In this document: positions 931 through 3,402 of the stretch, piece after piece
Layout: each line of letters opens with the position of its first letter
Position numbering within the stretch: the first letter of the stretch is position 1
From: a virus
Lineage: Duplodnaviria; Heunggongvirae; Uroviricota; Caudoviricetes
IMG/VR virus record: IMGVR_UViG_2695420643_000022
Reading direction: 5' to 3' (one strand)
Length of the DNA stretch: 9,262 nucleotides
Made by a program: the position numbers and the translations under genes
Notes under the pieces: model-generated
Database searches by the model: none
Told to the model about the DNA's origin: nothing
What the model saw: the letters and a program-made list of their open reading frames with translations, nothing else

Positions 931-1473
931 TCAAAAATCAGCCTGACTCGGGAGCAGTTTTTGCCAGATGGCTGAAACGTATTTCGCCTGGTAACGTGCA
1001 TCGTTCAGAGCGTTATGGCGTTCACCTTCGAATGGAATAGTCGTTCTTGCGTCGAAATCCATCACCAGTCCCAGAGCAACCATCGTTCTTACATCGCGAT
1101 CATTGGTGTAACGCCATGGGCAGGGGATCCCCTGCCGTTCATATGAACGGCGTAAAATCACGTTGTCGAAAGTTGCACCGTTACCCCAGACCTGAACAAA
1201 AAATTCACCGGAGTTTTCGTCGATAAATTCCCGTAATTGCAGCAGTGCATCATCTAACGGGATTTCATCGGTAAGAATGGCGGATTGCGCTTCGCGTGAC
1301 TGTTTCAGCCACCACTTAATGGTGTCCCGATCAATGACTCCGCCAGCAGTTTCCAGATCGATAGTTTTGCTGAATTCTGGCCCCATCTCTCCGGTTTGCG
1401 GATCGAAAAATATTGCACCTATTGAGATAATCGGGGCATCAGGATTTTTTCCCATTGTTTCAAGGTCAATCAT
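931..1473 (-). other. DEDDh (DnaQ/RNase T-like) 3'-5' exonuclease domain within the large exonuclease gene
   Basis: Motifs DxE (HLMIDLETMG, codons at 1450-1473), N..FD (VWGNGATFDNVIL) and H-x4-D (ERHNALNDARY) in correct order and spacing. Confidence 0.7.
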
Positions 1474-3402
1474 CAGATGGTGCCACAACCTGCTGGTGGA
1501 TGAGATTTCATGATGACCGTTCACTTTAATTAAGGGATTTGCTGTTTCGCCAGTTTTATTATCGCTGGCGTGATACTGATCGCTGCCAGTGTTCTCCTTG
1601 TGCAGATGTTCAGTGCCTTCCATTTCCTCCGGATCATTTTTCTGAGCTTCAGCCTGATTCTCTTCATCGAATGTTTCCAGGTAGGTTGCGTTCCCCATCA
1701 CCGCACCACAGTCAGGACAGTTGCCGCCACCGGTCTGACCGCATGCGGTGCAAACTTTTTCCCGTTCCTGTTGCACTGCTGGTTCTGGTTGTTGTTCTTC
1801 TGGCCCGTTTTGTTGCGTATCCGGGCTGTTTTGTTCCGCTTCTGGCTCATTTTGTTTCACGTTGGGCTGATTCTGGTCCTCAGCGTCGCGACTCTGGATC
1901 CCTTTCACCCATTTCGGATCATTCGGGTCGCTAATCCCTTCAACAAATTCACCACGTGATGCAGCAAGCAATTTATCGGCGTCAGGCTGGCTGATATTGG
2001 CTGCCTGCATAATTTTGTTTACTTCGTCAGCGGTAACTTTTACCGGCTCTGATTGTTCGGAATCTTCAGCGGTATCCACATTTTGCGGTAAGCCCGTGTA
2101 TGTGCCATTTTTTCGGGCAAAATATTCTTCTTTTGAGATTTCGGTACCGCCGGCAGCCAGCGCCTTGTCCAGACCAGAAAGTTTGTTTGCCCTGCCGTAT
2201 TTTTCCCCGCCCTTATCGGTAAAGACGAAATAAAATGGTCCTTCACGCTCTACAGATGGTTCAGCTTCCACCAGGATTTCATTTTTTTGAGTATCGGATT
2301 CTGCCGTCTCCACTGGAGCAGTTTGTGCTGCTGACGGCTGGAGAGCATCAGTAGAGCTCTGGTCTGTTTCTTCATGTTCAAACACGCCCTTTGTCGTCAG
2401 GTATTCACTGATATATTTGTTCAGTGCAACGGGATCTTTGTGAATATCGATCGGACGTTCGCGAACAAGGCCAAAAATAGTCTGACGGTCATAGCCAAGT
2501 GCTTCGGGCTGTTTGCGCATTGATGCTGAGATACGCTTCCAGTCTTCGCGATCCTTGTCGATAACCTCATTTGTCGCCCAGCGATGGATGGTACCGTCAA
2601 TGTTTCCTGCATCCACATCACCGGGCCAGAGGGCGCAGGCCAGTTCATTGTCGAGTGTTTTCCATGTCTGTTTGTATTCGCGGCGAATGGCAACAGTGAC
2701 AGCCCCGGTTTTTTCAGCAGCGTTTTCAGTGTTCTGTTGGTTGACTCTGGCGCGGGTGAGATCAACAACAGACGTGTATTTTCCGGTTTCCTTGCGTTCA
2801 CCTTCGCGACGTTTTTTCCAGATGCGCATCTCTGCCTGAATTTCAGGCCATTTAGCGCCAGGCTCACATTTATGCTTAACCCACCCGATGGCATGCAGTT
2901 TAAGTTCAGGATACATGGCGTTAACTTCTGGCATTTTCATCAACGCTTCAACGATATGTCCGCCGAATGTTGCCATGTCTTCCTGTAGTAATTCCTGTGC
3001 GCTAATCACCATATCAACGGTGATGTTTTCGCATGTGTCGAATTTAACCAGGACTGCGTTCTGTACTTCAGGGGACAGCTTGTCAAAATTGACGTTCATC
3101 GGATCGGATTCTGGTTCGACCGGCACAAAGGAAGCTGACTCCTCATCCCAGCGGTTTTCCTGCATATATTCGGTATCCCAGGAATCGAGGGCAGGGCGGG
3201 GTATGCCGGGTTTATCCTCGCAGACAATAAATTTATAAGCGCAGTCCTGAGCTGCCGGGAATTGCTCCAGAAATTGCCAGTGAAATTTTGCGCGTGCGCG
3301 ACGCTCATCACCGGCTTCAATGGCAGTGGCCACCGCAACAGCGCTATCTTCTTTTATGGCCTGTTCGTCAGGAATAGCAGCGCAAATAAAGATTTTACTC
3401 AT
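931..3402 (-). CDS. Exodeoxyribonuclease VIII-like recombination exonuclease, 823 aa: N-terminal domain, long acidic/Q-rich low-complexity linker, Cys4 zinc ribbon, C-terminal DEDDh 3'-5' exonuclease domain
   Basis: C-terminal ~180 aa carry the DnaQ-like motifs MIDLETMG (Exo I), WGNGATFDN (Exo II) and HNALNDARYQ (Exo III, DEDDh). Zinc ribbon CTACGQTGGGNCPDCG. SD GAGG upstream of ATG at 3402. The exoVIII label is from memory of similarly sized lambdoid prophage proteins. Confidence 0.75.
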   Translation of the reverse strand: MSKIFICAAIPDEQAIKEDSAVAVATAIEAGDERRARAKFHWQFLEQFPAAQDCAYKFIVCEDKPGIPRPALDSWDTEYMQENRWDEESASFVPVEPESDPMNVNFDKLSPEVQNAVLVKFDTCENITVDMVISAQELLQEDMATFGGHIVEALMKMPEVNAMYPELKLHAIGWVKHKCEPGAKWPEIQAEMRIWKKRREGERKETGKYTSVVDLTRARVNQQNTENAAEKTGAVTVAIRREYKQTWKTLDNELACALWPGDVDAGNIDGTIHRWATNEVIDKDREDWKRISASMRKQPEALGYDRQTIFGLVRERPIDIHKDPVALNKYISEYLTTKGVFEHEETDQSSTDALQPSAAQTAPVETAESDTQKNEILVEAEPSVEREGPFYFVFTDKGGEKYGRANKLSGLDKALAAGGTEISKEEYFARKNGTYTGLPQNVDTAEDSEQSEPVKVTADEVNKIMQAANISQPDADKLLAASRGEFVEGISDPNDPKWVKGIQSRDAEDQNQPNVKQNEPEAEQNSPDTQQNGPEEQQPEPAVQQEREKVCTACGQTGGGNCPDCGAVMGNATYLETFDEENQAEAQKNDPEEMEGTEHLHKENTGSDQYHASDNKTGETANPLIKVNGHHEISSTSRLWHHLMIDLETMGKNPDAPIISIGAIFFDPQTGEMGPEFSKTIDLETAGGVIDRDTIKWWLKQSREAQSAILTDEIPLDDALLQLREFIDENSGEFFVQVWGNGATFDNVILRRSYERQGIPCPWRYTNDRDVRTMVALGLVMDFDARTTIPFEGERHNALNDARYQAKYVSAIWQKLLPSQADF

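What the first reader, a model, noticed from the sequence alone, without database searches (positions are those of the whole stretch)
931..3402. Large recombination exonuclease with unusual modular architecture and no adjacent annealing-protein gene
Seen in sequence: the 823-aa protein combines an N-terminal domain, a roughly 250-aa acidic and Gln/Glu/Pro-rich low-complexity linker, a CxxC...CxxC zinc ribbon, and a C-terminal DEDDh 3'-5' exonuclease domain. Canonical RecE and lambda Exo are 5'-3' PD-(D/E)XK-type enzymes. It lies directly upstream of xis with no RecT/Bet-like partner in between, so the recombination module differs from the classic exo-bet or recE-recT pairs.
Basis: partly seen in the sequence, partly recalled or inferred. 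Interest (0 to 1): 0.45.

Follow-up and report, generated by a model that had tools for sequence, protein, structure and literature searches.

The report
RecE-like scaffold carrying a DexA-type exonuclease
This is an intact copy of a very common but never-studied E. coli prophage gene (the full-length form of the K-12 pseudogene ydfE): a RecE-like scaffold protein whose usual 5'-3' nuclease is replaced by a T4 DexA-like 3'-5' exonuclease, and across its relatives this form never comes with an annealing-protein gene.

Summary
ORF 931-3402 (-) encodes 823 aa. It has a C-terminal Rv2179c/DexA-family DEDDh domain (Pfam E=7e-66; D646, E648, D746, H796, D801), a Cys4 motif (551-565) and an acidic 295-aa middle region. 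Xis follows directly and no annealase gene is present.

It is not rare. Matches occur in 4797 of 5426 complete E. coli genomes. The N-terminus is 89% identical to K-12 Qin pseudogene ydfE, and Pfam already has YdfE_N and YdfE_C families.

It is not RecE. Only aa 262-625 resemble Rac RecE, and homology stops where RecE's PD-(D/E)XK nuclease begins.

Relatives show a cassette system. The same scaffold carries one of three C-termini:
- a RecE nuclease, with recT immediately downstream in 31 of 32 loci;
- a Rad52-fold annealase;
- this DEDDh nuclease, with no RecT within 10 kb in 26 of 26 loci.

So the missing partner is a family trait, not a local loss.

Function is untested. I infer a scaffold-tethered 3'-end DNA-processing nuclease made from the early-left operon during lytic growth. 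Rivals are exclusion of modified-DNA phages (as reported for a stand-alone E. coli DexA homologue), nucleotide scavenging and RNA decay.

Verdict: a catalogued but uncharacterised gene, of moderate interest.

The parts
931..3402 (-). Whole gene, 823 aa plus stop codon (931-933). Intact form of the K-12 Qin pseudogene ydfE.
   Evidence: ORF list. 99.9% identical PGAP genes named 'exonuclease' or '3'-5' exonuclease'. aa 1-255 are 89% identical to K-12 ydfE.
2743..3402 (-). Scaffold part N1, aa 1-220: a small alpha/beta sub-domain (aa 1-100) plus a helical sub-domain (aa 105-207).
2368..2742 (-). Scaffold part N2, aa 221-345: a helical domain (aa 245-340) shared with Rac RecE aa 278-340 and with all classes of relatives.
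   Evidence: BLASTP against RecE. pLDDT 84-95 over aa 241-340. Found in DEDDh, PD-(D/E)XK and Rad52-tail relatives.
1483..2367 (-). Acidic middle region, aa 346-640: pI 4.36, net charge -32, with three conserved islands.
   Evidence: Composition.
2083..2265 (-). Island M1, aa 380-440 ('GPFYFVFTDKGGEKYGRANKL...EISKEEYFARKNGTY'). Conserved in YdfE-type relatives, including some annealase fusions. Absent from Rac RecE.
   Evidence: phmmer segment mapping; alignments.
1888..2040 (-). Island M2, aa 455-505 ('DKLLAASRGEFVEGISDPNDPKWVKGIQ'). This is the last block shared with the RecE-nuclease sister protein, so the cassette breakpoint lies right after 'DPNDPKW'.
1708..1752 (-). Cys4 motif, probably a zinc ribbon: C551, C554, C562, C565. 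Identical spacing in Rac RecE (CNACGQTGGDNCPDCG).
   Evidence: The motif segment was detected in 10 proteins across the 70 related loci, so it is not universal in the family.
1529..1978 (-). The only stretch with DNA-level homology to Rac recE: 76% identity, aa 475-624 against RecE 455-590.
   Evidence: blastn.
934..1482 (-). DEDDh 3'-5' exonuclease domain, aa 641-823, of the DexA/Rv2179c family. Catalytic residues D646, E648, D746, H796, D801.
   Evidence: Pfam PF16473, E=6.9e-66. The nearest solved structure by sequence is the 227-aa exodeoxyribonuclease 8KEL, E=5.9e-7, which I match to T4 DexA through PMC12153337. Catalytic residues conserved in at least 154 of 158 relatives.
621..863 (-). 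Excisionase-type gene (DUF4224), immediately downstream of the exonuclease gene.
   Evidence: Pfam; PGAP annotation.
92..643 (-). 5' part of the tyrosine integrase gene, cut at window position 91/92 by an IS3-family element.
3496..4109 (-). Upstream genes of the same early-left operon: ydfD (DUF1482, 3496-3687), dicB (3684-3872) and the DicF sRNA (4058-4109).
   Evidence: Operon structure in K-12 as described in PMC11430063.

Best explanation
SHOWN.
- The gene encodes the full-length YdfE-type early protein of Qin/mEp460-like lambdoid phages.
- It has a confidently folded N-terminal scaffold (aa 1-345).
- It has an acidic tether whose conserved islands and Cys4 motif are shared with RecE.
- It ends in a catalytically intact DexA/Rv2179c-family DEDDh exonuclease domain.
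- It is one form of a cassette system. The same scaffold carries, in sister prophages, RecE's PD-(D/E)XK 5'-3' nuclease (then always followed by recT), a Rad52-fold annealase, or this DEDDh nuclease (then never with a RecT-family gene).

INFERRED.
- The protein is made from the repressor-controlled early-left operon after induction.
- The scaffold brings the nuclease to the same, still unknown, target as RecE's N-terminal region, most simply DNA ends or recombination/replication intermediates.
- There the domain trims 3' DNA ends or flaps. T4 DexA has a comparable reported role in intron homing.
- It relies on host functions rather than a phage annealase.
- It is therefore a DNA-end-processing accessory of phage replication and recombination, not a RecE/Exo-type resection enzyme.
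For: Architecture.

Cassette swap:
- Module mapping of 150 cluster representatives and 70 genomic loci.
- The L011 protein matches aa 1-498 (the locus scan reports 85% identity over aa 1-499; BLASTP gives 77% over the full 566-column alignment). It then continues into a PD-(D/E)XK domain with recT downstream.
- The third tail is a Rad52 fold: the Foldseek top 22 hits are all human RAD52, E down to 3e-5. Weak Pfam Rad52_Rad22 hits occur in 7 of 11 members. Stand-alone homologues sit next to nucleases in other phages.

Partner statistics: 0 of 26 against 31 of 32 loci with RecT. No annealase family appears among the 63 cluster representatives of upstream ORFs. None is found in the whole 46-kb phage Tritos.

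Position: the gene sits where lambdoid phages keep recombination genes, between the cell-division inhibitors and xis-int.

Expression: promoter-like sites in and around the gene are no more frequent than in shuffled sequence. In K-12 ydfE is co-transcribed from the DicA-repressed dicB promoter (PMC11430063).

Against: - No biochemical or genetic data exist for this protein.
- 3'-5' polarity destroys rather than creates the 3' tails that RecA or annealases use. A direct recombination role is therefore not obvious.
- The Pfam family is named for an exoribonuclease, so the substrate could be RNA.
- A stand-alone E. coli DexA homologue was reported to ignore unmodified DNA and to act in defence (PMC12153337).
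- The scaffold fold gave no functional clue.
- Sharing a scaffold with recombination proteins is guilt by association.
Confidence: 0.45

Rival explanations
1. Exclusion or defence nuclease. The DEDDh domain works like the 'HREX' enzyme EcD. It degrades the 5hmC- or otherwise modified DNA of superinfecting T-even-like phages and spares unmodified host and prophage DNA. That would protect the lysogen or the induced cell.
For: - Kang et al. 2025 (PMC12153337) report that a stand-alone E. coli DexA homologue cuts T4 DNA, does not cut unmodified dsDNA, and protects cells even at leaky expression.
- Their census of 'bacterial DexA homologues' is dominated by Escherichia, Citrobacter and Klebsiella, the same genera as this family.
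- The D169-equivalent residue is present here (D782).
- The W152-equivalent position is variable (Y, T, W, C), as might be expected for a specificity determinant.
- The gene is retained in most E. coli genomes, often in several copies.
Against: - EcD is a different, stand-alone protein. It starts MIDTET and ends TIPETYD, and it was not found in any fetched locus.
- This copy has T766 in place of the tryptophan said to stack on 5hmC.
- The gene lies in the repressed early-left operon, with promoter-like sites no more frequent than chance.
- PADLOC gives only a generic DEDDh match, E=1.6e-4.
- The idea does not explain the 640-aa RecE-like scaffold, or why the same scaffold carries RecE nuclease or an annealase.
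Confidence: 0.2
2. Bulk nucleic-acid turnover. The protein is either a DexA-like scavenger that degrades host DNA fragments to nucleotides during lytic growth, or an Rv2179c-like 3' exoribonuclease acting on host or phage transcripts, for example the xis-int message just downstream.
For: - Pfam family PF16473 is defined on a mycobacterial exoribonuclease, and PGAP often names these proteins '3'-5' exoribonuclease'.
- Host-DNA scavenging is a classical DexA role.
- Stand-alone 190-aa versions of the same domain sit at the same place, just before xis-int, in other temperate phages.
Against: - Temperate lambdoid phages are not known to depend on host-DNA breakdown (my own knowledge, not tested here).
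- By sequence the domain is closer to the DNA enzyme DexA than to any solved RNase. Only 8KEL and 8KEN are found.
- The idea gives no role to the scaffold, which is conserved and confidently folded.
Confidence: 0.15
3. Degenerate RecET module. The protein is a genuine RecE-type recombination exonuclease whose recT partner was lost in this particular prophage. This is the scenario the first reader named as its refutation test.
For: - Old annotations call it exonuclease VIII.
- aa 262-625 are homologous to RecE.
- This prophage copy is damaged elsewhere: an IS element sits in int, and a neighbouring gene is a pseudogene.
Against: - There is no PD-(D/E)XK domain.
- None of the 26 related DEDDh loci, nor a complete viable phage genome, has a RecT-family gene. 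No other annealase family was recognised among upstream ORFs.
- Catalytic residues and full length are conserved across genera.
Confidence: 0.03

Closest known systems
RecE (exonuclease VIII) of the Rac prophage, with RecT
   Same: - Same slot in the early-left operon of a lambdoid prophage, upstream of xis-int.
- Homologous N2 domain, M2 island and Cys4 motif: aa 262-625 against RecE 278-591, about 80% identical over the last 150 aa.
- Similar size.
- RecE's N-terminal region is likewise of unknown function (PMC11611040).
   Different: - The C-terminal catalytic domain is DEDDh (3'-5') instead of PD-(D/E)XK (5'-3').
- The first ~220 aa are YdfE-type instead of PF06630 Exonuc_VIII.
- No recT follows.
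T4 DexA (PDB 8KEL) and the bacterial 'HREX' homologue EcD
   Same: - Same DEDDh sub-family, E=5.9e-7 to 8KEL.
- All catalytic residues are present.
- The D169-equivalent acidic residue is present.
   Different: - DexA and EcD are stand-alone proteins; DexA (PDB 8KEL) is 227 aa. Here the domain is the last fifth of an 823-aa protein.
- The W152-equivalent residue is T766 in this copy.
E. coli K-12 YdfE (b1577, Qin prophage pseudogene); Pfam YdfE_N (PF27430) and YdfE_C (PF27432)
   Same: - 89% identical over aa 1-255.
- Same neighbours: dicF, dicB, ydfD upstream and int downstream.
   Different: K-12 ydfE is cut by IS2 after codon ~255. It therefore lacks everything from N2 onward, including the nuclease. 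The window holds the intact gene.
YdfE-scaffold annealase fusions (e.g. Pectobacterium phage ZF40 gp07, Yersinia and Serratia prophage proteins, PHROG 2489)
   Same: Same N1-N2 (and in some members M1) scaffold and the same operon position before xis-int.
   Different: - The C-terminus is a Rad52-fold annealase plus a coiled coil instead of a nuclease.
- It is followed by a Sipho_Gp157-family gene.
Lambda Red (Exo-Bet-Gam)
   Same: Early-left operon function placed between cell-division or host-takeover genes and xis-int.
   Different: No sequence or fold relation. Opposite nuclease polarity. No annealase and no Gam.

Membership tests
RecE / exodeoxyribonuclease VIII (NCBIfam NF007259; Pfam PF12684 nuclease domain) | C-terminal PD-(D/E)XK 5'-3' nuclease domain (RecE aa ~600-866) | tested here: not met
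   No Pfam PF12684 hit. The NF007259 score is 260 against a cut-off of 1269 and covers only aa 453-625. BLASTP homology ends at RecE residue 591. phmmer with RecE 596-866 finds it in sister proteins but not in the DEDDh class to which this protein belongs.
RecE / exodeoxyribonuclease VIII | RecT-family annealase gene immediately downstream | tested here: not met
   Xis follows after 67 nt. No RecT or Bet by tblastn in the window. 0 of 26 related loci have one, against 31 of 32 for the true RecE type.
RecE / exodeoxyribonuclease VIII | N-terminal Exonuc_VIII domain (PF06630) | tested here: not met
   No PF06630 hit at E <= 0.1. The domain is detected in relatives such as P0246.
RecE / exodeoxyribonuclease VIII | Central region with the 'DKLLAASRGEF.DGISDPNDPKWVKGIQ' block and the CxxC...CxxC motif | tested here: met
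   About 80% identity over aa 470-625; 76% DNA identity over window 1529-1978.
DEDDh (DnaQ-like) exonucleases, Rv2179c-like family PF16473 | Full-length match to the family profile above the curated cut-off | tested here: met
   221.8 bits against a cut-off of 27, profile positions 1-177 of 177.
DEDDh (DnaQ-like) exonucleases, Rv2179c-like family PF16473 | Five catalytic residues D-E-D-H-D | tested here: met
   D646, E648, D746, H796, D801. Conserved in 154-158 of 158 relatives.
DEDDh (DnaQ-like) exonucleases, Rv2179c-like family PF16473 | 3'-5' exonuclease activity and substrate (DNA or RNA) | not testable with these tools
   Needs an enzyme assay.
DexA / HREX (hmC-recognising exonucleases, PMC12153337) | Residues equivalent to DexA W152 and D169, said to recognise 5hmC | tested here: inconclusive
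   D782 aligns with D169. T766 aligns with W152 (Y in 74, T in 43 and W in 24 of 158 relatives). The aromatics W763 and Y765 lie nearby. The alignment in this loop is approximate.
DexA / HREX | Loss of the tetramer-forming D90, giving a dimer-only enzyme inactive on unmodified DNA | tested here: inconclusive
   D718 aligns with D90 (D in 89, V in 59 of 158). The alignment could shift by one or two residues.
DexA / HREX | Protection against T4 and selective cleavage of 5hmC DNA | not testable with these tools
   Needs plaque and nuclease assays.
YdfE family (Pfam PF27430 YdfE_N, PF27432 YdfE_C) | Match to both YdfE domains | tested here: met
   The two families are not in the local Pfam copy. 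They are precomputed on a 100%-identical partial (P0001) and on all 86-98% identical relatives. The protein is 89% identical to K-12 YdfE.
Two-component phage recombinase (exonuclease + annealase, e.g. Red or RecET) | 5'-3' dsDNA exonuclease paired with an SSAP gene | tested here: not met
   Neither the polarity class nor the partner gene is present.
Known anti-phage defence systems (PADLOC-DB 2.0) | Match to a defence-system protein model | tested here: not met
   Only a generic Cas-associated DEDDh model, E=1.6e-4, 20.3 bits.

The most novel reading that the evidence does not exclude
The YdfE/RecE N-terminal region is a portable targeting platform on which phages exchange end-processing chemistries. 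The DEDDh version would define a third kind of phage recombination or repair module. It would have no annealase and would work by 3'-5' resection. In it the scaffold itself, rather than an SSAP, would bring DNA ends or partners together, or would deliberately remove 3' tails to steer host RecA/RecBCD action on phage DNA.
Probability: 0.12. Interest if true: 0.8.

Novelty: new variant of a known kind. Interest (0 to 1): 0.42.

Why it matters
**RecE's N-terminus.** RecE's first ~600 residues have had no assigned function for decades, although they boost linear-linear recombineering (PMC11611040). The same scaffold carries three different effectors: a 5'-3' nuclease with RecT, a Rad52-like annealase, and a 3'-5' nuclease alone. 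This makes the question testable by domain swaps between natural partners. L011 and this protein, for example, match over their first 498 residues.

**Annotation.** Thousands of 'exonuclease VIII' and 'RecE' labels on this gene imply the wrong chemistry.

**Reach.** The gene is present in most E. coli genomes, including STEC prophages. Any role in phage recombination, prophage mosaicism or phage exclusion would therefore be broadly relevant.

Tried and rejected
- **Local loss of recT:** rejected by the survey of 70 loci and by a whole-phage check.
- **Other annealases nearby:** a Pfam scan of 63 cluster representatives of all same-strand ORFs of at least 110 aa within 9 kb upstream found only repressors and unrelated families. 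ORFs shorter than 110 aa, and annealase families outside Pfam, were not covered.
- **Fold of the N-terminal scaffold:**
  - BFVD gave nothing at E <= 0.001.
  - The afdb50 library was unavailable.
- **Profile search with diverse N-terminal sequences:** only 18 hits, because the word index was saturated. A single distant query worked instead.
- **Sequence-only tests of the Rad52 idea were weak:** nothing in a PDB profile search, and hhalign E=0.027 with probability 1.8%. Structure comparison settled it.
- **EcD sequence:** I looked for it through the paper's primers. It is absent from all fetched loci, so identity to EcD is unknown.
- **Own promoter upstream of the gene:** promoter-like sites are no more frequent than in shuffled sequence.
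- **Defence-system membership:** none.
- **Literature on YdfE, Rv2179c in prophages, or DEDDh 'exonuclease VIII':** no functional study found.
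Full report
**1. The observation**

The window has an 823-codon ORF at 931..3402 on the minus strand. Its features are as follows.

- **C-terminal domain.** aa 641-813 match the Pfam family Rv2179c-like (PF16473) over the whole profile, E=6.9e-66, 221.8 bits against a cut-off of 27. A weak RNase_T hit covers the same stretch.
- **Catalytic residues.** The DEDDh residues are D646, E648, D746, H796 and D801. They are kept in 154-158 of 158 relatives.
- **Nearest solved structure.** By sequence it is the 227-aa exodeoxyribonuclease 8KEL, E=5.9e-7. 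I match this entry to phage T4 DexA through the paper that solved the DexA structure (PMC12153337).
- **Zinc motif.** CxxC motifs lie at 551-554 and 562-565.
- **Middle region.** aa 346-640 is acidic (pI 4.36, net charge -32). Only aa 504-547 is truly low-complexity, at 55% Q+E+P.
- **Downstream genes.** A DUF4224 excisionase-type gene starts 67 nt after the stop codon, followed by the integrase gene.
- **No annealase.** tblastn finds no RecT, Bet, lambda Exo, Gam or Rad52-like sequence in the window.

The description is therefore correct. The one caveat is that the 'linker' contains conserved islands.

**2. What the gene is**

The window from position 92 onward is 99.96% identical to a prophage of E. 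coli O103:H2 strain 12009, where PGAP calls the gene 'exonuclease'.

Gene order, reading along the minus strand:
- cI-like repressor
- relBE
- DUF1391, ydfB
- DicF sRNA
- dicB
- ydfD
- this gene
- xis
- int

. This is the early-left operon of the Qin type.

The first 255 residues are 89% identical to the K-12 Qin pseudogene ydfE, which is cut by IS2. The window therefore holds the intact form of ydfE.

The gene is extremely common:
- megablast finds it in 4797 of 5426 complete E. coli genomes;
- the median is 2 places per genome and the maximum 10;
- 3534 genomes have a place covering at least 80% of the gene.

It also occurs in viable temperate phages, including Tritos, Evi, HannyBb, PhiR42_1 and mEp460_ev081.

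Close relatives carry three precomputed Pfam families: PF16473, PF27430 (YdfE_N) and PF27432 (YdfE_C). A 2014 classification of RNase H-like proteins already lists a DEDDh cluster of 'Exodeoxyribonuclease VIII enzymes' (PMC3985635). I found no functional study of YdfE or of this protein.

**3. Relation to RecE**

- BLASTP against K-12 Rac RecE aligns aa 262-625 with RecE 278-591. Identity is 38% overall and about 80% over the last 150 residues. The aligned part includes 'DKLLAASRGEFV.GISDPNDPKWVKGIQ' and the Cys4 motif.
- Homology stops just before the crystallised RecE nuclease domain. A review places the nuclease domain at residues 564-866 (PMC11611040).
- DNA homology is confined to window 1529-1978, at 76%.
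- The NCBIfam RecE model scores 260 bits against a cut-off of 1269.
- No PD-(D/E)XK domain and no PF06630 N-terminal domain is detected.

The protein shares RecE's non-catalytic middle and nothing else. The same review states that RecE's N-terminal domain has no known function.

**4. A cassette family**

An exhaustive HMMER search with aa 1-345 finds only 174 cluster representatives at E <= 0.001 among 1.84 billion proteins. I mapped segments of this protein and of RecE onto the long hits. All combinations occur:
- the N-terminus is either YdfE-type (N1) or RecE-type (PF06630);
- the N2 domain is shared by nearly all of them;
- the C-terminus is one of three kinds.

The three kinds of C-terminus are:
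- the DEDDh domain;
- the RecE PD-(D/E)XK domain (PF12684);
- a ~280-aa tail with no Pfam family above threshold.

The third tail carries a 'KKSLTDAIKKALSxLGFSADV' signature. Evidence on what it is:
- weak Pfam Rad52_Rad22 hits in 7 of 11 members, best E=0.0039;
- it aligns over 116 columns with human RAD52, hhalign E=0.027;
- a confident AlphaFold2 model, with block pLDDT mostly 77-93 over the tail;
- the 22 best Foldseek hits of that model in the PDB are all human RAD52 N-terminal domain, E down to 3e-5 and probability 1.00.

Stand-alone homologues of this tail occur in Vibrio, Pseudomonas and Pelagibacter phages. In one of them it is annotated as an annealase next to a nuclease. The fusion proteins occupy the same operon slot before xis-int and are followed by a Sipho_Gp157-family gene.

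The clearest natural swap is locus L011. Its 987-aa protein matches this one over aa 1-498 and then diverges right after 'DPNDPKW'. The locus scan reports 85% identity over aa 1-499. BLASTP gives 77% over the full 566-column alignment, which runs past the breakpoint. The L011 protein continues into a PD-(D/E)XK domain and is followed by a RecT-family gene.

**5. The missing annealase is a family trait**

A scan of one genome per species returned 70 loci. Nearly all are titled Enterobacteriaceae, and a few MAG or other contigs carry other names. Counts are in the table.

| Scaffold class | Loci | RecT-family gene | What lies downstream |
|---|---|---|---|
| Long scaffold + DEDDh | 26 | none within 10 kb | in nearly every locus an ORF of ~80-95 aa, then one of ~340-430 aa (xis, int) |
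| Scaffold + PD-(D/E)XK | 32 | 31 with one starting within a few bases of the stop codon | the one exception is a 2.3-kb contig |

. Four of the downstream genes were checked and match Pfam RecT, E of 1e-38 to 1e-44.

Further checks:
- I clustered every same-strand ORF of at least 110 aa within 9 kb upstream of the DEDDh genes and scanned the representatives against Pfam. This gave repressors and unrelated families, but no RecT, Erf, Rad52 or other annealase family.
- The complete 46-kb genome of phage Tritos has no annotated or detectable annealase, Exo or Gam.

The gene was not orphaned here; the DEDDh form is never paired.

**6. The scaffold**

AlphaFold2 on aa 1-345, with 60 diverse relatives, gave mean pLDDT 85.6 and three sub-domains:
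- an alpha/beta unit, aa 1-100;
- a helical unit, aa 105-207;
- a helical unit, aa 245-340.

The pTM of 0.38 shows the model does not fix how these sub-domains pack against one another.

**7. How it most likely works**

Shown:
- a full-length, conserved, catalytically intact DEDDh nuclease sits on a RecE-like scaffold;
- it lies in the early-left operon;
- promoter-like sites in and around the gene are no more frequent than in shuffled sequence;
- in K-12, ydfE lies in the DicA-repressed dicB transcription unit (PMC11430063).

Inferred: after induction, the scaffold delivers the nuclease to the same target as RecE's N-terminal region. There it trims 3' DNA ends or flaps. This is plausible because DexA is reported to act in intron homing as well as in host-DNA scavenging (PMC12153337).

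The association of the scaffold with a RecE nuclease plus RecT, and with a Rad52-like annealase, points to DNA-end and recombination intermediates as the arena. But 3'-5' polarity cannot produce the 3' tails used by annealases or RecA. I therefore see it as an accessory end-processing enzyme that depends on host functions. I put this at about 0.45.

**8. Rivals**

*(a) Exclusion of modified-DNA phages (about 0.2).*
- For: Kang et al. report that a stand-alone E. coli DexA homologue, EcD, cuts T4 DNA but not unmodified DNA, and protects cells.
- Against: EcD is a different protein.
- Against: this copy has T766 at the position of the 5hmC-stacking tryptophan.
- Against: the gene is in a repressed operon, and PADLOC gives only a generic match.
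- Against: the scaffold is left unexplained.

*(b) Bulk DNA or RNA turnover (about 0.15).*
- For: the Pfam family is named for an exoribonuclease.
- For: 190-aa stand-alone versions sit at the same position in other temperate phages.

*(c) A RecET module that lost recT (about 0.03).* This is refuted by section 5.

**9. Novelty and verdict**

The gene and its domain content are already in the databases, and this copy is ordinary. What appears unrecorded is the system-level picture:
- the RecE N-terminal region belongs to a portable scaffold;
- it carries three alternative effectors;
- the DEDDh form consistently lacks an annealase.

My literature search was limited to the held library. I rate it a variant of a known kind, of moderate interest. 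Its main value is that it makes the old question of what RecE's N-terminus does directly testable, and that it corrects a widespread 'exonuclease VIII' label.

Noticed in passing
window 1-91 (junction at 91/92): Homology to the intact O103:H2 prophage stops at position 92. The first 91 bases belong to a multicopy IS3-family element: a query of window 1-140 gave 24,330 places in E. coli genomes. The element truncates the integrase gene after codon 184, so this prophage copy probably cannot excise by itself.
   Followed up: yes
window 4058-4109 (-), with dicB 3684-3872 and ydfD 3496-3687: DicF antisense sRNA (Rfam RF00039, 77 bits) and the cell-division inhibitor DicB lie just upstream in the same operon, as in K-12 Qin.
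   Followed up: partly
window 5781-6259 (-): A RelE/ParE-RelB toxin-antitoxin pair sits between the cI-like repressor gene and the early-left genes.
   Followed up: no
window about 7685-8140 (-), overlapping the + strand ORF 7441-8001: In the 99.96%-identical reference, PGAP marks an ECs1072-family phage gene here as a pseudogene with an internal stop. This is a second sign, besides the IS in int, that the prophage is decaying.
   Followed up: no
window 4818-5207 (-): A 129-aa ORF in the early-left operon has no Pfam family. Its only hit is a weak PADLOC match to HEC-02A (E=0.007).
   Followed up: partly
P0173, P0155, P0139 and relatives; L078:3678-5843; L081:6001-8202; L082:6001-8160: A class of 'exonuclease'-annotated prophage proteins (PHROG 2489) is in fact a YdfE scaffold fused to a Rad52-fold annealase with a long coiled coil. 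In the three annotated loci a ~166-171-aa gene follows with overlapping stop and start; it is Sipho_Gp157-family in L081 and L082. The annotations 'exonuclease' and 'transcription termination factor' are both misleading.
   Followed up: yes
alignments A2 and A7 (e.g. P0215, P0218, P0253, P0173, P0155): A short motif, 'NLGxGxFS[IV][DE]GL', recurs in the linkers of Klebsiella/Citrobacter-type DEDDh proteins and of the annealase fusions. It is absent from the window protein, which has the Q/E/P stretch and Cys4 motif instead. It may be a partner-binding peptide.
   Followed up: no
window 1105-1107 (codon 766): The residue aligned with DexA W152 (5hmC stacking) is polymorphic among 158 relatives: Y in 74, T in 43 (including this copy), W in 24 and C in 8. 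The position aligned with D169 is G in 89 and D in 68.
   Followed up: partly
L015:8669-9049 and 17 other loci: In 18 of the 26 DEDDh loci a conserved ~126-aa ORF with no Pfam family lies a short distance upstream of the scaffold gene. Most of these loci have the RecE-type N-terminus. The window has ydfD at that place instead.
   Followed up: no
L027:7532-8362, L038:6354-7268: Temperate phages with the stand-alone 190-aa DEDDh gene carry a DUF2303 gene upstream. One of them (L038) also has an RdgC-family gene there. So other recombination-related functions accompany the free-standing domain.
   Followed up: no
P0214 (752 aa): In one representative of the DEDDh class the second catalytic residue is changed (VDLKTMG, E to K). 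It may be an inactivated copy.
   Followed up: no
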